A stretch of DNA of 64,000 nt, from IMG/VR virus record IMGVR_UViG_3300049324_000002, positions 32,001 through 96,000 of that record; one strand, 5' to 3'. The notes below the pieces were generated by a model. It ran no database searches. It was not told where the DNA came from and saw only the letters and a program-made list of their open reading frames with translations. This stretch comes from a virus. Positions 17,580-53,270 of the stretch are shown piece by piece. The position numbers and the translations under genes are program-made. Positions within the stretch are counted from its first letter, which is position 1. Every line of letters starts with the position of its first letter.

Positions 17580-17780
17580 CTATACCGCAGAATCGCCAGA
17601 ATCAGTAGCAGATGAATCTTCCGGCTCGTCCTTCACCACCGGCAACCCATCCCCATCCACCGCCAAATCAGGAGCAGGCGAATAACGACGCGTCTCGAAG
17701 AAATCGTCAGCCACAGACTCCAATTCGTCCATAGACGGTCCAGTCTGCATATCAGCGTCACTATTCACTGACGGGCTGCT
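17580..17780 (-). CDS. Small acidic hypothetical protein
   Basis: Fills the gap after the topoisomerase; start uncertain. Confidence 0.4.
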   Translation of the reverse strand, partial: SSPSVNSDADMQTGPSMDELESVADDFFETRRYSPAPDLAVDGDGLPVVKDEPEDSSATDSGDSAV

Positions 17781-19068
17781 CACCGCTACCCACCCCCTCC
17801 CACTTCGCAAAAACAGACGGATCAATGTAAGAAGCCAGTGCAACAGTCGGAGTGTTACCAAGTTTCTCCGACACCGCCACAGCCACCGCGCGGCGAGCCT
17901 TCACCAAAGCCGCCTTATTAGATGGTACCGGCATAGCCTCCACCATAGCAAAAGCATGCAACGTGCCATGATACGTACGTAAATCCTTTAACTTAAACCC
18001 AGGAGCAACAGAATGTAGATAGTCTGCTGTCTTTCTCTCATTTGTGGCAAACACCTTATCCCCTGGTGCCTTACCAGCAAGTCTAGGCGTCAACATAGCA
18101 GCCAACTGAGGATCCTCAACAGAGAAAGAAAGATCTACACCCTTTTTACCAGTGAAATCGAGATGAACAGTCTCACCATCTACCTTAACGTGACCAGCAC
18201 GAAGATTAGTCGCACCAAACGCTTTCTTCTCTGCACCAGTATCAGAATCCGAACCCGGGCGCAACCCCAACCGCCGAATCAACATTAAAGCAGCGGCGTG
18301 GTCGTTGGTCGCTGAGTCACTAGAAATACTATGATCGATATCCCCAATATGAGAACGCAAAGTATTAATCCTCGCGAACTTCGCTGCCGCTTGCTTTTCT
18401 GAGTGCGCCGACGAATAGACATACTGAGAACGTCCTTTCGAGTCCATACCAACAGCCTGCAAAGCTGCATTAGGATCATCAGTAACCTGAACATTCGTCC
18501 AAGCTGGTGGCAACTTAATGCCATCCTTAGCAAGACGCTCATGATCCGCCTGAGACGCTACATGGAACCCCGCTCGAGCAGGCGCGGCAGGAGGTTCTCC
18601 ACTGGGAGCGCTCGGCGTACCAGGCGATTGTGCATCATTGTGGACAGGTTCAGAATGCGTACTAGAAGGACTACTCGAAACCGGAGCCGCGCCGGGGGCC
18701 TGTGAAATACTCTTAATCGTCACACCCTTATGGCCACGAGGATGAGGAGTAATCCGCTTACCAGTCTCACGATCATAATCGTAAGCTGACACTTCCTCAA
18801 TACCATGAGGAGTATGCCTCGCATGCGCAGGAACATGCACAATAGTAGCCTGCACCTCAAGCACATGCGTATCTAAAATACTATCTGGAATAGGGTTACC
18901 ATCTACATAACCCTCAATCCACATCTTAGCTTTAATTCTAGCTGACGGAGAAGCAGATTTGACGTCAAAAGGGTTGTCTGAATTAGGATTGCCGACCCGG
19001 GCGGCACGCACACCGTCACGGTACGCAGCAACCATATCCTGCTCAATCGACACCAGTTGACCTCTCAC
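17761..19068 (-). CDS. DNA topoisomerase IB (bacterial/poxvirus type) with N-terminal extension
   Basis: 'LPPAWTNV', 'DSKGRSQYVY', 'GLRPG' (R), 'FTGKKG' (K), 'KDLRTYHGT' (R), 'LGNTPTVALASYIDP' (N/Y): catalytic motifs are present. Confidence 0.92.
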   Translation of the reverse strand: MRGQLVSIEQDMVAAYRDGVRAARVGNPNSDNPFDVKSASPSARIKAKMWIEGYVDGNPIPDSILDTHVLEVQATIVHVPAHARHTPHGIEEVSAYDYDRETGKRITPHPRGHKGVTIKSISQAPGAAPVSSSPSSTHSEPVHNDAQSPGTPSAPSGEPPAAPARAGFHVASQADHERLAKDGIKLPPAWTNVQVTDDPNAALQAVGMDSKGRSQYVYSSAHSEKQAAAKFARINTLRSHIGDIDHSISSDSATNDHAAALMLIRRLGLRPGSDSDTGAEKKAFGATNLRAGHVKVDGETVHLDFTGKKGVDLSFSVEDPQLAAMLTPRLAGKAPGDKVFATNERKTADYLHSVAPGFKLKDLRTYHGTLHAFAMVEAMPVPSNKAALVKARRAVAVAVSEKLGNTPTVALASYIDPSVFAKWEGVGSGEQPVSE

Positions 19069-25842: not shown

Positions 25843-26028
25843 CTACGCAACTGCTGGGTGCAACACTAAAGACAACACAACATACAAAATTATTCCAAGC
25901 ACCAGTAAAACAATGCCAGGACGGTACCCGCCAGGAACAAGATCTCCTGCACCCGGAATGACTCCCAGAATAATAAGAATCAAACCAATCACAGCCATGA
26001 TGACGCAGAGAGTAAGCAGAAGTCCCAT
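25843..26028 (-). CDS. Holin-like two-TM membrane protein
   Basis: Two hydrophobic helices in 61 aa; close to the endolysin. Confidence 0.6.
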   Translation of the reverse strand: MGLLLTLCVIMAVIGLILIILGVIPGAGDLVPGGYRPGIVLLVLGIILYVVLSLVLHPAVA

Positions 26029-26237
26029 TACACGTTCCTCGCGATAGAAGCGTTAGCCCAAAACATGACCTCTTCTATCTTCGTCAAGGCAAGAGCCTTC
26101 TCACGCCCGTCAGGTAGCTGCTGGTCAAATTCCTTAGCCAACGCTAAACAATTATTGCGAACAGACTGATGCTGCTCCACCTTCTTCTCATCAGGAGCAT
26201 GATAAGAAAAACGATTATCCAAATCAGAAGTAGCCAC
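26028..26237 (-). CDS. Acb2/Tad1-like helical hairpin protein (possible nucleotide-signal sponge)
   Basis: 'RFSYHAP...LPDGREKALALTKIEEVMFWANASIAR' matches the Acb2/Tad1 hairpin pattern as I know it. Confidence 0.7.
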   Translation of the reverse strand: MATSDLDNRFSYHAPDEKKVEQHQSVRNNCLALAKEFDQQLPDGREKALALTKIEEVMFWANASIARNV

Positions 26238-29736: not shown

Positions 29737-30507
29737 CTATTCCTCCGAATCCCCAGGCTTAGCCTTCTTAGCACCAGCCTTAGGGGTGGTCGTCTTCGGA
29801 GGCTTCGTCAACAGATCCCATTGCGTGACCTTGTACCGGCCAAACCCACCAGACCGAGAAGCGCCAACACCCTGCTCCTGACCAGTCAGCCACACAATCT
29901 CCCAGAAACCATCACAAGCCGCATCAAAATCGAAGTCAGTAATAACCTGAAACTTCAATACAGCAGGAGTCACATGCTCCTTATAATGCGGGGCAGAACC
30001 ATACTGAGTATGCACGAACTGCTGCACAATACCAGAAGCAGTAAGCACGTTCTTGCCATCATCAGGATTAAAGATATGAACCTTATCATCCGTCACCATA
30101 ATATGCTCAGCAACGAACCCCTTAGCAAACTTACTCGTCACACCCCACGAGCGAAGCGGCACGTTCCCGGCCGCGACGGCGACCATCACAGCCTCTTTCA
30201 GCGCAGCCTTCACCTGACGACCATCAATGTACAGGCCCTCAGTATCTTTCTTAAACCCAGTGAAGTGCTTAGCCGAACCAACCAGCTTCACAGCCTCCTC
30301 AGCAGACACCGCGCGCTCAGCCATCGTCTCAGCAACAGCCCGACGAACAGCATCGTCTTTATCCTCAATCTTGGTACGCAACCAAGACTCCGCGACCTTC
30401 TCATCAGTAGGAATACCACCAGCAATCGAATCCACCTGAATCGTGGCCGCGTAACGCCACTTCCAAACCCTATCCTGTGCTGAAGCGAAAACAGAAGTAG
30501 CCGACAT
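29737..30507 (-). CDS. Stand-alone Cas7/Csm3-like RAMP protein
   Basis: N-terminal strand 'RYAATIQVDSIAGGIP'; 'LYIDGRQVKAALKEA' (compare RAMP P-x-IPGSSLKGALR); C-terminal G-rich loop 'GVGASRSGGFGRYKV'; basic tail; RBS AAGGAG. Confidence 0.8.
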   Translation of the reverse strand: MSATSVFASAQDRVWKWRYAATIQVDSIAGGIPTDEKVAESWLRTKIEDKDDAVRRAVAETMAERAVSAEEAVKLVGSAKHFTGFKKDTEGLYIDGRQVKAALKEAVMVAVAAGNVPLRSWGVTSKFAKGFVAEHIMVTDDKVHIFNPDDGKNVLTASGIVQQFVHTQYGSAPHYKEHVTPAVLKFQVITDFDFDAACDGFWEIVWLTGQEQGVGASRSGGFGRYKVTQWDLLTKPPKTTTPKAGAKKAKPGDSEE

Positions 30508-30600
30508 CAGATATGCTCCTTGTTATTTGTTGTCGAATCAACCCCGGACAAGCCGAGGCACAGCACCGTCACCATTGACGACAAACCCCTTATACCGAGA

Positions 30601-30845
30601 GATCGATATGAGTTGAATGAACAGACAAGTCGAGATGAATTGAAACGACTCGGCTAGAAAAGTCGGCGTTGAATAGTATCGAGTTGACGGGTGAAGTCGG
30701 TAGGGAGGCGACCCGATCAGGAGCGACATGAGTGGTCGATGCGAAGGGAAGCGAATAGAGAAGTCGGTGATGTATAGACTAGCAGCGAAATGACTTGGCT
30801 TGTCGAATCGACTTGATCTGATATGAACCGTCTTGAGAAGTCGAA
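30601..30845 (-). repeat. Short pentamer-periodic non-coding array (7 units) upstream of the RAMP gene
   Basis: Minus strand: CGAC TTCTC AAGAC GGTTC ATATC AGATC AAGTC GATT CGAC AAGCC AAGTC ATTTC GCTGC TAGTC TATAC ATCAC CGAC TTCTC TATTC GCTTC CCTTC...; spacings between CGAC marks are 38, 39, 28, 39, 34 and 33 nt. Confidence 0.9.
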
Positions 30846-30846
30846 A

Positions 30847-31404
30847 CTAAGAAGCAACAATAGAAGTACGGCCCTGAATCGAACTGTACATTCTATCAAT
30901 ATCCTCTTCAGAGAAGACAGCACCCACCGTCTGCTGGCCAACCCGGGACGCCAGCGCGAGCAAGAACGCCTCCTCCAACAAAGCAGTATGAGCTGAACGT
31001 GAATACCTAGCAGCCGCGAAATTCAAATCATCACGATTCATGTCAAGCAAACGACGCTGAGTATTCTCACCATCAACAGCGTAACGTACGGTCTTCCAAT
31101 GACTAATCGCACTGGAATCCCCGCCCGTAAACTTGCGAGCATCTGCCGCAAACGCAGACCGTGCCGCATTCGACCGAGCCCGCGCTCGAGCGGAGGCAAG
31201 CCGATGCTTAATCTGCTCAGCCAAGAACGTACTAGAATGCTCCAACAGCCAACCAGTAAGCAACTCAGGATCAGTTTTCTTCAACCTACTGACAAGTGTC
31301 CACGAAGCAACAGAAGGAATCAAATCCGACTCAGCATCTAAAAGAATATCGGTAATCATTTTAGACATCTCAGCAGAGTAATTCCTGCCTGGATCTTCAT
31401 CCAC
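30847..31404 (-). CDS. Hypothetical protein directly upstream of the array and RAMP gene (candidate accessory)
   Basis: 185 aa, mostly helical; its stop abuts the first array unit; RBS GAGGAG. Confidence 0.7.
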   Translation of the reverse strand: MDEDPGRNYSAEMSKMITDILLDAESDLIPSVASWTLVSRLKKTDPELLTGWLLEHSSTFLAEQIKHRLASARARARSNAARSAFAADARKFTGGDSSAISHWKTVRYAVDGENTQRRLLDMNRDDLNFAAARYSRSAHTALLEEAFLLALASRVGQQTVGAVFSEEDIDRMYSSIQGRTSIVAS

Positions 31405-47626: not shown

Positions 47627-49106
47627 GAAACCCCAGGCATCTGCTTAGCAATCCAATCAAGCAGCCACTTAGGCTGAAAGCATTTGTTGTGCAAAGATAT
47701 AGTAATCATATCAGGAGGAACCCATCCATCAGGATCATCCCGAACTTCATCAAAAAAGCCAGTCACTAAAACAGAATCCACACGCCACCGCACGTCACGA
47801 CGCGCGAAGTTAACCTCAACCTCTACCACATCAAATAACGGACCATGAATCGACAACCGAATAGGATCCTGATCAATCACAGAAGCAACAATAGTCTGTG
47901 CACCACGAATACTCGTCAACTGAAAAGCCATCACGAAATCCCACCCGCTGGCTTACGCTCCATCACCCAAGACCACAACCAACCCTTAATACCATCAGGG
48001 AACAACATATGGTCCGTCTCATAAGCGCGAACACCATCTTCACTCATCAAAAAACCAGCAACCCTCACAGCATCCACACACCACTCGCTGCCAGTCAACT
48101 GACTACATTTATAGTCAACGCGAAATCTAGTGACAAGCAACTGCTCGCGGCGAGCCGGGAAAAGCGAAATAGGAGGCATCTCCTCGACCTCCGTATAAAC
48201 GGAGTGAGTGCCAGCCAGACTCACGACCTTAATACCCATGACCTATCCTACCGCAGGCACGTCAGGACGATGCTCCTCAGCAAAATCCAACAACCAACCC
48301 GGGACCCTGTCCGGCAACACCTCAATCTCCACACAACCTAAATCATAACCAATAGGAACACCACTCGCGCGTGCGTAACTACCTCGCGCTTTCAACATAA
48401 AAGTAGTCCAAACAGCAGACCCTGGCTCACGACGATAATGAACAGACACAGCATTAGGCAAAAACTTCAAATCCATAATATCAGAAGGAACACTCAAAAT
48501 AGGCTCACCAACCACAGACCCTGACACCACATGCCTCTCCGCAACACGCGCATGATACAAACTAAACGGAGGGGTAATCGTCGTGTAAGTAACATCCGTG
48601 ATTCTTATCGTCATCGTCGTCCTTGATCTCATAGAACTCAGTATCACCATAAACACACTCGAAAGACTCTTCGCCGCGATCCGCTTTCTCTAACACACGC
48701 TCACGCAGGAACGCCTTACTAGAACCCTCCGGAGCCTCTACCACAGTACAAATAACAGACTCCTGCGATACAATCACTCGGAAACGCATCGTGACCCCGT
48801 CTCCGTAGGCGAAAACCGAAACACCAAATCAACAACCCAGGTATTCGACAACTCATGATTATCAAAATGAAGATAAGTTGGAAGAGAACCAATACCACTA
48901 CCGTCAGAACGAACCATCATACCAGATATCTTCACATCGACAACCTCCCACACACCACCAGTTTTATCTGCCCTAGCGTATTTAATCTCCAAAAAATCAA
49001 CTTCGATAAACAACGGAGGATTAGTACCAGGAATATGCAATTTATCAAAACCATCAACATTTAATTTAACAGTGCAAGTAGCAGACGCACTAGATACATT
49101 AGACAC
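47623..49106 (-). CDS. Paralog family A, second cluster (47623, 47931, 48243, 48774) plus small ORF 48562-48789
   Basis: Same motif as 42.8-44.4 kb; the first gene's RBS (GAAGGAG) abuts the 3' end of the large array. Confidence 0.75.
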
Positions 49107-49119
49107 AACAAACTCCTTC

Positions 49120-52100
49120 GTAACGTCGGAAAGGAAAAGACGGGAATCGCACTGACCCGGGAAGTCGGATGAGAACTGAAGTGGAAACGAATGGTCGGGC
49201 TCGAGTAGTCGAGTAGAACTGAATGGACGTGCATAGTCGGAACCGATTGGAAGGGAATAGACACGATCTGAGTAGTCGAATCGACGCGATCCGGCCAGGA
49301 ATGGAGTAGTCGGTAAAGAATAGACTCGACACGTAAAGACAGAAGCGATCAGTCGAAACGACCGGGCACGAAACGCAGTGACGTGGCTTGTCGGAAAGAA
49401 CGGAAGTGCGCCGCCAGGAGTAGTCGAGCCGATCGGATGCGATAGGGCGTGACGTGGCTTGTCGGTGATGGCCAGTAATGACCGGGGGCGACTCGTGTAG
49501 TCGGGTCAGACCAGACTCGCCTTGGACATGAGTAGTCGAAGGACCAGAAACGACTCGCCGTGACATGTCGTATTGTACCGACGTGATCCGCCTGGTCTCG
49601 AATCGCGAAGTCGGAGCTGGATGGGGGAGCGGAGAGAAGTCGGAGCTGAGTGGAACGGAGATGAGGAGTCAGTAGGGGACGACAAGATCTGAATGGTCGA
49701 ACAGAAACGACGAGATTTGTGCGGTCAAAAGAGTCGAAACGATCTGACCCGATCCGATTCGTCGCATTGCAGTGATTGGAACTGACTTGGCTGGTCGAAC
49801 AGAATCGAAAGGACATGGCTTGTCGACGGGAACGAGAGGGCTTGACTGGTCGATCGGAGTCGGACGGAGCTGGCTAGTCGAAATGAATCGCCCGGACCTG
49901 AAAGAAGTGACTTGTCGAACAGGCACGAAATGATATGGATTGTCGAACAGAATCGAAAGGACTTGACTGGTCGATGGAAATGAAAAGACGTGAGTTGGCT
50001 GGTCAAGCGACTCGACTAGGCTGGAACTGACTCGTCGGTAAAGGATCGTCAGGAATCGGAATGAGTAGTCGACAGGAATCGAATAGAGTAGACTCGTCAG
50101 ATCGGGATCGCTGGGATTCGAATAGACTTGTCGGAAAAGAGTAGACTTGACAGGACTAGACGTGAGTGGTCAGACAGTCATGGCTTGACTTGAAACGAGT
50201 GGTCGGTGCGGTCACGATCTGACTCGAAATGAGTGGTCAAAAAGAACTGACCTGACGAGACAGGGTTAGTCGAAAAGAACTGGCCTGACCCGGGGCGACC
50301 GGACGTGAGAAGTCAAGCGAATCGAACAGACATGTTAGTGACCGGATGTGTCGAATCGGCATGACCTGACTTGTAGTGAGAAGTCGAAACGTATCGAATC
50401 GAAAGCGATAGGCCTTGGAGTGTCAAACGAAGTGACTCGGCCAGGCGTGACTGGTCAACAGAATCGACTCGTTGACGAATAGTCAAAGTGGTTCGGATCG
50501 ATTCGCCTCGGCTCGCGTAGTCAACTGAGAAGGAAAGATCTGAATGGAAGAGTCGGACTGGAAACGTCGAGGGCTGACCTGAAACGAGTAGTCGGACTAG
50601 GAATGCCAAGAAACGATTAGCATCGAGTAGTCGGAATAGAATAGCTAAGGCAAGACAAGATCAGTCGGAACAGACAGGACTCGCAAAGGAACAGAAGTGC
50701 CATGAGTAGTCGGTCCGACGTGAATCGACAATGTTAGGAATAGTCGTACGGGGCCGATACGCCTCGACTTGAACTGTCGAAACGAAATGACTTGGCGGGC
50801 ATGGAGAAGTCGGTCTAGAAACGACAAGATCTGCAACGGCTAGTCAGATCGGAGGGAATTGACTGGTATGGAAGCGGGAAGTCGGATGGGGAATGACTGG
50901 ATTGGAAAGCGGGTAGTCACGCGAGACGAATCGACACGCATAGTCGAACAGACATGATAGGAAACGCGTCGAGTAGTCGTCAAGGACTGACCCGACACGA
51001 GTAGTCAAAAGGCACGCATCGTCTGGAAACGAGTAGTCAAACGGGGTGAATCGCCACGCACAGTCAACCGACTCGATCTGACCCGTAAGGAAACGAGTAG
51101 TCGGAAAGAAAGGAAGCGAAGACGGAACGCGTCGAGTAGTCGGAACGGATGAGTAATGAAATCGCATCGCCACGAGTAGTCGGCATGGCAGGGGAGAGGC
51201 GAGAGTAGTCGAAAGGACGTGAACCGATATGAATAGATTCGTCGTATCGAGCTGAGGGGATGAGAAACGCATCGCGTAGTCAGACGGGACTGGACATGAT
51301 TAGTCGGATAAGACGTGAGCGGTAAAGAGTAGTCGGAAGTGTGCCGCTAGGACCTGACACGTCAAGCGAACAGAGTCGATCTGACCCGTCAACAGAAGTG
51401 ACACGTAAAGAATAGTCGGACCCGGAAGGTAGGGAACGGACCTGACACGTCACCAGAGCAGAAGTGGCACGCAAAGAGTAGTCAACTGACACGGAGTGAG
51501 TGGACGTGGATAGCGTAGTCAATCGAGACGACCCGAAACGCAAGGAGAAGTCGGAAAAGATACGGACAGAAAGTGGATTGAGTAGTCATACGAGACGACA
51601 CGGAACGTAAGGAGAAGTCGTGCGATTCGAATCGATAGGAATCGAAGTAGAGTAGTCGAACGGACCCGACGTGGGAGGAAAAGGGCAGTCACCTGACCCG
51701 GCGCGGACCGAGCGGGAAAGAGTAGTCGAGGTGGAGAGCCCAGAATCGATCTGTCGAAGCGGACCGAACGGTCGTGAATTGAGTAGTCGTACTGAGTTGG
51801 AATCGAGTGGGAATGAGTAGTCAACTGAGCGGAATTGTACAGAGTAGTCAAACGAATCGAAGCGGTATCGCGCGGGAATGAGTAGTCGCACAGTATTGAG
51901 CGGGCTCGCGTTGAGTAGTCAACTGACACGAAGGGACGTGGCACGATCCGTCAGGTCACATCGCATCGAATAGACGTGAGTAGTCGAAACGAAGGGAAAC
52001 GACTCGGGTCGGCTCGAACAGAGATGTCGAAACGAATCGGCGGGATATGGAAAGTCGTAACGGGTCGGCGGGATGTGAGATGTCGAAAAGATAAGACACG

Positions 52101-53107
52101 ACCGGAAAAGAAGAAAGAGACGCGACTGGTCGAACGAAAAGAATCGGAATGGATCGCGTAGACTCGTCACCAGAACAGAGCGGGTCGGTAGTGATCTGTC
52201 GGGCGACAAGACACGGCGCGATGTGAAAAGTCGAAAGAAACGACCTGAACCGTAGAGCATCGACAGGTCGCTGGGAACGAATTGTCCGGGCCAGAGAAGT
52301 CACACGAGTGGGAACGAATAGGTCTGTCACTCGAAATGAGTTGACGCGGTAATGGGTAGTCAAGTGAAAAGACGTGGCAGGAATGGACGTGAGTAGTCAC
52401 ACGATCCGATATGATCGGAAGGGACTTGTCGGTATAGTAAGAATGGATCGGTGACGATCAGTCGAATAGACCGGGAACGACACAACGCGACATGAGTAGT
52501 CAATCGAATCGATAAGCGTGGCATGGACTTGTCGGACTAGCAAGGACCAGAAAAGATCTGTCGAACGGACCTGACTCGACCAGCATGGACATGAGTAGTC
52601 AACTGACACGGATCGAGTGGCATGGACTTGTCGAAACGAAGGGATACGCCTCGACTTGACCTGTCAAAAGACCGGAAAGGACCAGACTCGACGCGATAGG
52701 TCACATCGAAACAAATAGACGCGAATCGTCAAACGATAAGACAAGATGCGAAACGACTGGACCTGTCGAAATGATCGGACGGGCAGTGATTTGTCAAATG
52801 AAGCGATTGGACGGGAAATGACACGTCACATGAATCGACCGGGAGCGACCCGATAGGTCGTACGAAGTGAAAGGGCAGGAAAGGACATGTCAGCATGAAC
52901 AGAAATGTAGCGATCTGAACGGTCGTGCAGAAGTGGGGTGATGGGAAAGGACATGTCAGTGCGAATGGACCGGGCATGACTTGCCACGTCAAGCGACCAG
53001 ACCAGACTAGACTCGAAGCGATAGGTCGAACAGGAACGACGCGACTCGATAGGATATGTCACAACGACCGGAATCGACGCGTCACGACGCGATATGTCAC
53101 ACGATAC
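49120..53107 (-). repeat. Large pentamer-periodic non-coding array (~4 kb, roughly 110 units by length estimate)
   Basis: Plus strand: runs of G(A)NNN pentamers punctuated by GTC(G/A), commonly GAGTAGTCG, e.g. GAACC GATTG GAAGG GAATA GACAC GATCT GAGTA GTCG; units mostly 28-44 nt in 5-nt steps; local base skew is inverted relative to the genes. Confidence 0.93.
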
Positions 53108-53128
53108 CCAGACCACTGGGGTACCACC

Positions 53129-53158
53129 ATCATACCCCACCCGGCCACCGCCACTCAA
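53129..53158 (-). promoter_or_regulatory. SigA-type promoter facing the large array
   Basis: TTGAGT-18-TATGAT; followed by hairpin CCCAG-TGGT-CTGGG (53120-53107) and then the first unit. Confidence 0.65.
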
Positions 53159-53198: not shown

Positions 53199-53270
53199 TG
53201 CCCCCAGGGAATTCTGCCATCCCGACCCACGCTTTAAAAGAGCGTTGCTCTGCTTCTGAGCTATAGGGGC
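53199..53270 (-). tRNA. tRNA-Lys(TTT) with non-canonical T-loop
   Basis: GCCCCTA/TGGGGGC acceptor; ACGCT-CTTTTAA-AGCGT; T-loop GGCAGAA. Confidence 0.8.

What the first reader, a model, noticed from the sequence alone, without database searches (positions are those of the whole stretch)
49120..53158. 4-kb remote array with the same pentamer grammar and its own promoter
Seen: about 4 kb of G(A)NNN pentamer runs (plus strand) punctuated by GTC, often GAGTAGTCG. Unit lengths step by 5 nt (28, 33-34, 38-39, 43-44) and most units are unique. The grammar matches the mini-array beside the RAMP gene 18 kb away. A TTGAGT-18-TATGAT promoter and a 5-bp hairpin sit exactly at the right edge, pointing in, and the left edge runs into the RBS of the next gene. 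A 5-nt period does not fit codon structure, and the plus strand flips from A/C-rich to G/A-rich here. Inference: a large guide library of roughly 110 units (estimated, not counted) used in trans by the RAMP protein.
Basis: partly seen in the sequence, partly recalled or inferred. Interest (0 to 1): 0.95.

Follow-up and report, generated by a model that had tools for sequence, protein, structure and literature searches.

The report
Giant remote VIPR guide-RNA array
This 4-kb stretch is a very large array of about 100-140 short guide RNAs for a phage VIPR system, a CRISPR-like RNA-guided DNA silencer first described in 2026 preprints; it is real and far larger than the published examples I could read, but it is a variant of a known kind.

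Summary
Window 49125-53098 has no long ORF and a strong 5-nt period: lag-5 identity 0.409 against 0.268 in shuffles (z 20). GTC marks split it into 141 phase runs, 106 of them with at least 4 pentamers (modal 6).

The "RAMP" gene 18.6 kb away folds as a Cas7/Csm3-like protein. In 71 of 81 loci with a homologue, the strongest period-5 signal lies within 1.5 kb of the gene. In 39 loci it fills the gap between a conserved 185-aa partner gene and the RAMP gene.

This matches the VIPR systems of 2026 preprints: a lone Vipr RAMP plus pentamer-coded vrRNAs. This scan had already found VIPR on other DNA, and that note gave me the lead.

New evidence comes from a close relative with the same array. It differs by gain or loss of whole units. 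The anchor G almost never changes (0.006), positions 2-3 change at a neutral rate (0.13), and the NN pair changes at half that rate (0.06). That fits guides kept by selection.

This array differs from the published type II systems in several ways:
- Only one base per pentamer is fixed.
- It has short, tail-less units.
- It is 4 kb long and remote from the gene.
- It has its own conserved leader.
- It is C-rich on the gene strand.

The transcribed strand and the targets remain unproven.

The parts
49125..53098 (-). Remote VIPR array. It holds about 141 phase runs, 106 of them with at least 4 pentamers. On the gene strand each unit reads YGAC + n x (N-N-k-u-C). On the + strand it reads (G-a-m-N-N)n + GTC.
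   Evidence: syntenic array in relative L206
53107..53158 (-). Array leader: -35 TTGAGT (53153-53158), -10 TATGAT (53129-53134) and a small hairpin (53107-53120).
   Evidence: Most of this element, including the -10 hexamer and the hairpin (but not the -35), recurs at the edge of the array at genome 23.8 kb. It is identical in L206 over about 62 nt while the flank diverges. The hairpin is thermodynamically weak.
49104..49119 (-). Ribosome-binding site GAAGGAG and GTG start of the next gene (48774-49106), about 6 nt after the last unit.
   Evidence: ATG in L206
29737..30507 (-). vipr gene: a 256-aa lone RAMP (Cas7/Csm3-like) with the G-loop GVGASRSGGFGRY.
   Evidence: No Pfam or PHROG match. 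188 homologues. AF2 pLDDT 77.6. Foldseek E 1e-5, probability 1.0, to Csm3 and type VII Cas7. VIA Z 9.3.
30590..30859 (-). Mini-array between the partner gene and vipr: 6-8 units of the same grammar.
   Evidence: present with different units in L117-L120
30847..31404 (-). Conserved 185-aa helical partner gene (vap candidate), upstream of the array and vipr.
   Evidence: tblastn finds it upstream of vipr in about 49 loci. AF2 pLDDT 87.2. No clear fold match, Z 6 or less.

Best explanation
The stretch is a VIPR array: a library of roughly 100-140 short guide RNAs (vrRNAs) for the phage's own Vipr protein, the lone Cas7-like RAMP at 29737-30507.

Most likely mechanism:
1. The array is transcribed on the gene (-) strand from its own conserved leader promoter at 53158-53129.
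2. The transcript is cut at or near the YGAC marks into 28-43 nt units.
3. Each unit binds one Vipr protomer per pentamer, 5-8 in all. The modal 6 equals one turn of the published Vipr filament.
4. One invariant base per pentamer (C on the gene strand, G on the + strand) anchors the protein.
5. The two selected bases (NN) read double-stranded DNA of competing mobile elements in a gapped fashion and silence them.

Shown here: the periodic code, the RAMP fold, the conserved array-gene linkage, unit-wise turnover, selection on NN and on the leader. Inferred from the VIPR papers: filament binding, DNA reading and silencing. Unproven: which strand is the RNA, how it is processed, and what it targets.
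For: - Period-5 code at z 20.
- Cas7/Csm3-like fold of the neighbour-array protein.
- In 71 of 81 homologue loci the strongest gene-strand period-5 C signal lies within 1.5 kb of the gene, against about 29% expected. Examples are Streptomyces and Nocardiopsis prophages that read GAC TACCC NNNCC....
- A conserved order of partner gene, array, vipr. In 39 loci the array starts a median 3 nt after the partner's stop and ends 31 nt before the vipr match. That leaves no room for an antisense promoter or terminator, which favours the gene strand.
- Relative L206 (flanks 90-93% identical) has the syntenic 4.2-kb array. It shows 18 indels of one unit (27-39 nt) or two units (60-67 nt), and five of 5 nt.
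- Substitution rates by pentamer position are G1 0.006, position 2 0.133, position 3 0.132, N4 0.072, N5 0.055. Codon positions in 18 flanking genes give 0.049, 0.033 and 0.103.
- The leader is identical in L206, and its spacer is 1 nt shorter.
- The published VIPR description matches: a lone RAMP in phages, 5-nt repeats, NN guides, alternative repeats NNNGG/YNNNG/NNNNG, staggered arrays, remote solo vrRNAs, and non-canonical GAC/NN repeats.
Against:
- No target was found. Matches under the 1-nt-skip rule and seven other spacing models in 1.3 Mb of related phage DNA were at chance level.
- Units hold only 5-8 pentamers, so 10-16 informative bases, against 9-16 repeats in published vrRNAs. There is no structured 3' tail.
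- Published vrRNAs are G-rich (GGY/NN). Here the G-rich strand is antisense to vipr and to every neighbouring gene, so either the code is mirrored or the RNA is antisense.
- Promoter-like sites in the region are no more frequent than in shuffles.
- The hairpin is no more stable than shuffled sequence.
Confidence: 0.8

Rival explanations
1. It is the same VIPR array, but the functional vrRNAs are the G-rich + strand, (G-a-m-N-N)n ending in GAGUA-GUC. They would be transcribed antisense to all phage genes, as in the canonical G-anchored code.
For: - Published vrRNAs are G-rich, with G1 read by the protein.
- GAC/NN and NNNNG variants are reported.
- On the G-rich strand the conserved piece (GAGTA-GTC) sits at the 3' end, like a tail.
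- The G-rich-strand grammar is the same in loci where that strand is the vipr strand, L170/L175/L177.
- In L184 and L186 a strong hairpin between vipr and the array is followed by a U-rich run in the antisense direction.
Against: - Arrays fill the partner-vipr intergenic gap to within 3 and 31 nt in 39 loci, so an antisense promoter and terminator would have to lie inside coding sequence.
- 67 of 81 arrays are C-rich on the vipr strand. The checked exceptions, L175 and L177, sit at convergent junctions where they are C-rich for the opposing genes.
- No + strand promoter-like site was found at the left edge.
- The conserved -35/-10 leader faces the gene-strand direction.
- Position 3 on the G-rich strand is mostly a purine or neutral, not the Y of GGY.
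Confidence: 0.3
2. The array is not a guide library. It would instead be a decoy or sponge that titrates Vipr complexes (its own or a competitor's), or a long regulatory leader for the downstream operon.
For: - Satellites and phages are reported to use solo vrRNAs to redirect or compete for Vipr.
- The units are short.
- No targets were found.
- The array runs straight into the ribosome-binding site of the next gene.
Against: - The NN positions evolve at half the neutral rate while positions 2-3 are neutral. A pure sponge needs only the anchor base.
- Nearly all units are unique.
- The phage carries its own vipr and partner gene.
Confidence: 0.07
3. The array is a DNA-level feature with no RNA role: a decayed pentanucleotide microsatellite, a protein-binding lattice or curved DNA.
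For: Arrays differ in size and place between relatives. Local duplications are visible.
Against: - Position-specific selection: 0.006 at the anchor against 0.13 next to it.
- Indels come in whole units.
- The linkage to a RAMP gene holds across distant phages of 46-72% GC.
- The leader is conserved.
Confidence: 0.03

Closest known systems
VIPR systems, type II exemplars Escherichia phage SUSP1 and the Pseudomonas fulva prophage (bioRxiv 10.64898/2026.04.26.720920, 10.64898/2026.04.26.720927)
   Same: - A lone RAMP (Vipr) in a phage, with one small accessory gene.
- Non-coding arrays of 5-nt repeats with a fixed anchor and a variable NN pair.
- Arrays beside the gene and elsewhere in the genome.
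- A guide-library logic.
   Different: - Only one base per pentamer is invariant (G-a-m-N-N), not GGY.
- Units have 5-8 repeats, not 9-16.
- There is no structured 3' tail, only a GTC/GAC mark with a 2-3 nt phase shift.
- There are about 100-140 units in one 4-kb array, against four vrRNAs in SUSP1.
- The array is C-rich on the vipr strand.
Staggered vrRNA arrays and the alternative repeats NNNGG/YNNNG/NNNNG (same preprint, fig. S18 and methods); non-canonical GAC/NN arrays (bioRxiv 10.64898/2026.10.21.760802)
   Same: Tail-less, abutting units in shifted phase. A reduced scaffold. GA(C)/NN on the + strand.
   Different: I could read only legends and text, not the figures or tables, so identity with these classes is not verified. 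No array of this size or remoteness is mentioned in the text I read.
Solo or orphan vrRNAs of satellites and SUSP1-family phages (bioRxiv 10.64898/2026.10.15.759431)
   Same: vrRNA loci that lie far from any vipr gene; the paper's cut-off is more than 20 kb or none on the contig. They act in trans.
   Different: Here vipr is on the same genome, 18.6 kb away. The locus holds about 100 or more guides rather than one, and it has its own conserved leader.
CRISPR arrays with Cas7 backbones (types I, III, IV)
   Same: A RAMP that binds the guide periodically. Arrays of unique units. A leader with a promoter. Turnover by whole units.
   Different: There is no long direct repeat and no cas1/2/3/5/6/10. 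The period is 5 nt rather than 6. Unit turnover is spread along the array, not confined to the leader end.

Membership tests
VIPR | A lone Vipr protein: single-RRM RAMP with a G-loop and thumb, and no other cas genes | tested here: met
   AF2 model with pLDDT 77.6. The top Foldseek and VIA hits are all Cas7/Csm3/Cmr4. The G-loop GxGASRSxGFGR is invariant. No other cas-like genes were seen among the ORFs scanned.
VIPR | The protein falls inside the published Vipr clade | not testable with these tools
   No published Vipr sequence or structure was reachable. A PDB profile search gave nothing. No SUSP1-type hit in the phage collection; the only hit was Microcystis phage Mae-JY09.
VIPR | Tandem 5-nt repeats beside vipr, with fixed scaffold positions and a variable NN pair | tested here: met
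VIPR | Canonical GGY scaffold | tested here: not met
   + strand G .94 / A .64 / A .37 C .39. High-GC relatives give G .93 / G .60 / G .49. This fits the reported alternatives NNNNG, NNNGG and GAC/NN.
VIPR | Each vrRNA ends in a conserved structured 3' tail (type II) | tested here: not met
   Units are separated only by GTC plus 0-5 nt. This may correspond to the staggered arrays of fig. S18.
VIPR | An accessory vap gene next to vipr | tested here: inconclusive
   A conserved 185-aa helical gene lies upstream in about 49 loci. Its fold matches nothing clearly, and it cannot be compared with vap1-6.
VIPR | The NN positions carry the guide information | tested here: met
   NN evolves at 0.055-0.072 against 0.13 at positions 2-3 and 0.103 at codon position 3. 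NN composition is far from the neutral composition.
VIPR | Natural targets match under the 1-nt-skip (xNN) rule | tested here: inconclusive
   Matches in 1.3 Mb of own and related phage DNA are at chance level for skips of 0-3. The host and its mobile elements are unknown.
VIPR | vrRNAs are expressed as small RNAs and bound by Vipr | not testable with these tools
CRISPR-Cas | Identical direct repeats alternating with spacers, plus cas1/cas2 or effector cas genes | tested here: not met
   There is no long repeat. No Rfam or Pfam cas hit.

The most novel reading that the evidence does not exclude
In this large actinobacterial and cyanophage branch the VIPR code is mirrored. On this reading the guides are pyrimidine-rich RNAs cut out of the gene-strand transcript, as YGAC + (NN-x-y-C)n. 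They are anchored by a single C per pentamer and are only one filament turn long. Phages of this 146-153 kb clade would keep libraries of more than 100 such guides in remote arrays with their own leaders. That would be a heritable, fast-turning-over repertoire against rival elements, on the scale of a large CRISPR array but without repeats or Cas1/Cas2.
Probability: 0.5. Interest if true: 0.75.

Novelty: new variant of a known kind. Interest (0 to 1): 0.55.

Why it matters
VIPR is a months-old discovery, characterised so far mainly in E. coli and Pseudomonas phages that carry a handful of long, tailed, GGY-anchored guides. This locus shows how far the design can be stripped down and scaled up:
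- one anchor base per pentamer;
- six-repeat, tail-less guides;
- more than 100 guides in one promoter-driven array remote from the gene.

The comparison with a close relative gives natural-selection evidence, independent of any experiment, that the NN pair carries the information and that guides are gained and lost as whole units. If the RNA is indeed the C-rich gene strand, protein-RNA recognition in this branch must differ from the solved structures. That bears on how RAMP-guide recognition evolved and on engineering shorter programmable guides.

Tried and rejected
**Early ideas, dropped once the RAMP linkage and the VIPR papers were found.** TRAP-like RNA binding, Rho rut sites, T7-type GTC primase sites, restriction or modification motifs, replication origin or packaging repeats, and curved DNA.

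**Coding.** No ORF exceeds 155 aa, and a 5-nt period does not fit codons.

**Sequence and literature look-ups.**
- blastn of the array and of a 6.4-kb structural-gene block against INPHARED phages: no match.
- Rfam: only tRNAs.
- A first literature search on pentanucleotide periodicity found nothing. The VIPR lead came from earlier notes of this scan and was then checked in the papers.

**Relatives.**
- A triple GAGTAGTC pattern in IMG/VR gave 99 stretches, only one of them a true relative.
- A single-sequence search with the RAMP protein in IMG/VR found nothing.
- The flanking 110-aa gene found nothing in IMG/VR, but the protein database did give L206.

**Targets.** NN with skips of 0-3, NNN with skips of 0-3 and NNNN with skips of 0-3 were searched in 1.3 Mb (own genome with arrays masked, G001, 85 loci). 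Only chance-level hits appeared, plus one array-to-array match. Guides of 10-16 informative bases are too short for single-pattern scans of the big collections, so those scans were not spent.

**"Triplet = codon" idea.**
- The composition of N1 N2 k3 resembles codon positions 1-3.
- Stop-codon depletion was not reproducible: G000 7 against 14.1, G001 29 against 29.0.
- Dinucleotide usage does not follow codon usage.
- Rejected. Position 3 simply sits at the neutral composition.

**Other negatives.**
- One guide shared between G000 and G001 (6 NN identical) is not significant once the handle pentamer is discounted.
- The partner-protein fold search gave no clear match.
- The PDB sequence search for Vipr found nothing.
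Full report
**1. Setting**

The window is bases 32001-96000 of a 146,490-bp IMG/VR virus record, judged 95% complete.

All long ORFs lie on the - strand. The genome has an extreme strand bias: the + strand has GC skew about -0.3 and AT skew about +0.3. Codon third positions on the gene strand are G .37 and T .48.

Pfam identifies a Mu-type portal, a Mu-like protease, an amidase, an Acb2/Tad1 homologue, a topoisomerase IB and a clamp loader. So this is a tailed phage. Relatives and homologues point to Actinomycetota hosts.

**2.

- In 49120-53158 the lag-5 identity is 0.409 and lag-10 is 0.372, against 0.21-0.25 at the lags beside them.
- Shuffles give 0.268 (z 20). No other 4-kb window of the genome exceeds 0.297.
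- GC skew flips sign only here, and no ORF exceeds 155 aa.
- Cutting at GTC gives units of mostly 33, 32, 28, 38 and 37 nt.
- Phase tracking gives the + strand pentamer G .94 / A .64 / A .37 C .39 / N / N. It finds 141 phase runs, 106 of them with at least 4 pentamers (596 pentamers; sizes 4-9, modal 6).
- Units are almost all unique.
- The genome holds exactly three such arrays: genome 22940-23806, window 30590-30859, and this one. Elsewhere the pattern is at chance level.

**3. The neighbour of the mini-array is a RAMP**

The 256-aa protein at 29737-30507 has no Pfam or PHROG match. It has 188 or more homologues, mostly unnamed, from Streptomyces, Nocardiopsis, Actinomadura and metagenomes.

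An AlphaFold model built from 30 sequences has pLDDT 77.6. Foldseek returns only Csm3 and type VII Cas7 chains at the top (E about 1e-5, probability 1.0). An independent all-against-all aligner gives Z 9.3 to type VII Cas7 and to Csm3, followed by Cmr4, Cas7-11 and type IV Csf2.

**4. Array and gene travel together**

I fetched 81 loci that encode homologues of 28-63% identity: 68 from IMG/VR and 13 from GTDB genomes.

- In 71 of them the strongest gene-strand period-5 C signal in the roughly 12-kb locus lies within 1.5 kb of the gene, where about 29% is expected.
- High-GC prophages read "GAC TACCC NNNCC ...". This is the same grammar shifted to C at position 4.
- A 185-aa helical protein (window 30847-31404) is conserved just upstream in about 49 loci.
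- In 39 loci the gap between that gene and the RAMP gene (median 602 nt, up to 1.9 kb) is filled by the array. The array starts a median 3 nt after the stop codon and ends 31 nt before the RAMP match.

**5. What it is**

I checked the papers.

- bioRxiv 10.64898/2026.04.26.720920 describes phage-borne systems made of a lone ancestral RAMP (Vipr), usually one accessory gene (vap), and vrRNAs.
- The vrRNAs consist of 9-16 YNNGG repeats followed by a 3' tail. GGY is held by the protein. The NN pairs read double-stranded DNA and skip every third target base.
- There are seven types, alternative repeats (NNNGG, YNNNG, NNNNG) and "staggered" arrays.
- The structural paper shows one protomer per repeat and six protomers per helical turn.
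- A later preprint describes solo vrRNAs far from any vipr.
- Another preprint reports 21 clusters of non-canonical repeats such as GAC/NN.

The present locus fits this kind in most respects. It does not meet the canonical GGY scaffold or the structured 3' tail (see section 9).

**6. New evidence from a close relative**

A 148,313-bp JGI contig (L206) has flanks 90-93% identical to this genome and a syntenic 4.2-kb array. A global alignment shows three things.

- Indels come in unit sizes. Fourteen are of 27-39 nt, four of 60-67 nt, five of exactly 5 nt and one of 10 nt. They are spread along the array.
- Substitution rates by pentamer position are G1 0.006, position 2 0.133, position 3 0.132, N4 0.072 and N5 0.055.
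- In 18 flanking genes the rates at codon positions 1, 2 and 3 are 0.049, 0.033 and 0.103.

So the anchor base is nearly immutable. Positions 2-3 drift at or above the synonymous rate, and the composition of position 3 matches the neutral composition. The NN pair is held by purifying selection.

That pattern is expected if NN carries guide information and units are the functional modules. It argues against a decaying microsatellite or a pure sponge.

Strain-level contigs L119 and L120 likewise share flanks but differ in the inner units of the mini-array.

A more distant relative, G001 (153,455 bp with terminal repeats), has arrays of 4.6 kb and about 1 kb, plus four smaller ones, partly at other positions.

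**7. Leader**

The promoter-like TTGAGT-18-TATGAT found by the scan is followed by a small hairpin and the first GAC.

- Most of this element, including the TATGAT hexamer and the hairpin but not a usable -35, recurs at the corresponding edge of the array at genome 23.8 kb.
- It is identical in L206 over about 62 nt. The sequence just upstream, including a tRNA-like gene, has diverged strongly, and the -35/-10 spacer differs by 1 nt.
- L206 carries one extra 28-nt unit right next to the leader.
- The hairpin itself is weak: -7.8 kcal/mol, z 0.06.
- Promoter-like sites in the region are no more frequent than in shuffles.

The case for the promoter therefore rests on conservation.

**8. Which strand is the RNA?**

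This is the main open point.

For the gene (C-rich) strand:
- Arrays fill operon gaps with no room for antisense signals.
- 67 of 81 arrays are C-rich on the vipr strand.
- Two of the three clear exceptions, L175 and L177, were checked. They sit at convergent gene junctions, where the array is again C-rich for the opposing genes.
- The conserved leader faces this direction.

For the G-rich strand:
- All characterised vrRNAs are G-anchored.
- On that strand the conserved GAGTA-GTC sits 3' of each run, like a tail.
- In L184 and L186 a strong hairpin at the vipr side is followed by a U-rich run in the antisense direction.

I put about 0.65-0.7 on the gene strand. The target search cannot decide this, because the NNx pattern is symmetric under reverse complement.

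**9. What differs from published VIPR**

- One invariant base per pentamer instead of GGY.
- 5-8 repeats per unit instead of 9-16.
- No structured tail.
- A 2-3 nt phase shift at GTC/GAC.
- About 100-140 units in a single 4-kb array, 18.6 kb from vipr, with its own leader.
- The opposite strand bias.

Arrays beside vipr in the 81 loci are 0.2-1.9 kb. I saw the 4-kb scale only in this 146-153 kb phage clade (G000, L206, G001).

**10. Targets**

None were found. Eight spacing models applied to 1.3 Mb of related DNA gave chance-level counts. With 10-16 informative bases per unit, single-pattern scans of the large collections would be dominated by chance, so I did not spend them. The host and its resident elements are unknown. 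The only cultured phage with a homologue is Microcystis phage Mae-JY09.

**11. Verdict**

The system is already known as VIPR, and this scan had met it before on other DNA. This is therefore a new variant of a known kind. It is notable for its size, its minimal scaffold, its remote leader-driven array and the unresolved strand question.

Noticed in passing
window 53199-53270 (-): A tRNA found by Rfam (45.6 bits) but missed by ARAGORN, just upstream of the array leader. The corresponding stretch in the close relative L206 is strongly diverged.
   Followed up: partly
window 26028-26237 (-): A 69-aa Acb2/Tad1 hairpin-domain protein (Pfam E 9e-21), the family known as sponges for anti-phage signalling nucleotides. 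It lies next to the amidase gene and is conserved in relatives L117 and L119.
   Followed up: partly
whole genome G000: Extreme strand composition. Codon third positions on the gene strand are G .37, T .48, A .06, C .09, and every long ORF is on one strand.
   Followed up: partly
genome 89014-128497 (partly beyond the window): About 18 genes start with ATGACGAACA directly after a conserved promoter-like block (cTACcGAC TTGCGT ... TATGCTATGCTT). This is a family of leaderless gene cassettes.
   Followed up: partly
window 17761-19068 (-): A topoisomerase IB whose N-terminus gives a sub-threshold match to the ribosome modulation factor family (24.9 bits; cut-off 27.9).
   Followed up: no
L119 3493-3826 vs L120 3493-3914: Two contigs from the same study, each with a vipr product of identical sequence. 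They have near-identical array flanks but different inner units and an 88-nt length difference: strain-level guide turnover.
   Followed up: partly
PP395641.1 37713-38450: Microcystis phage Mae-JY09 is the only cultured phage in the collection with a homologue of this Vipr (29.5% identity). Related IMG/VR contigs L186-L190 carry a downstream array after a strong hairpin.
   Followed up: partly
G001 145189-151006: In the relative with terminal repeats, the largest arrays (4.6 kb and about 1 kb) lie within a few kb of the right genome end.
   Followed up: no
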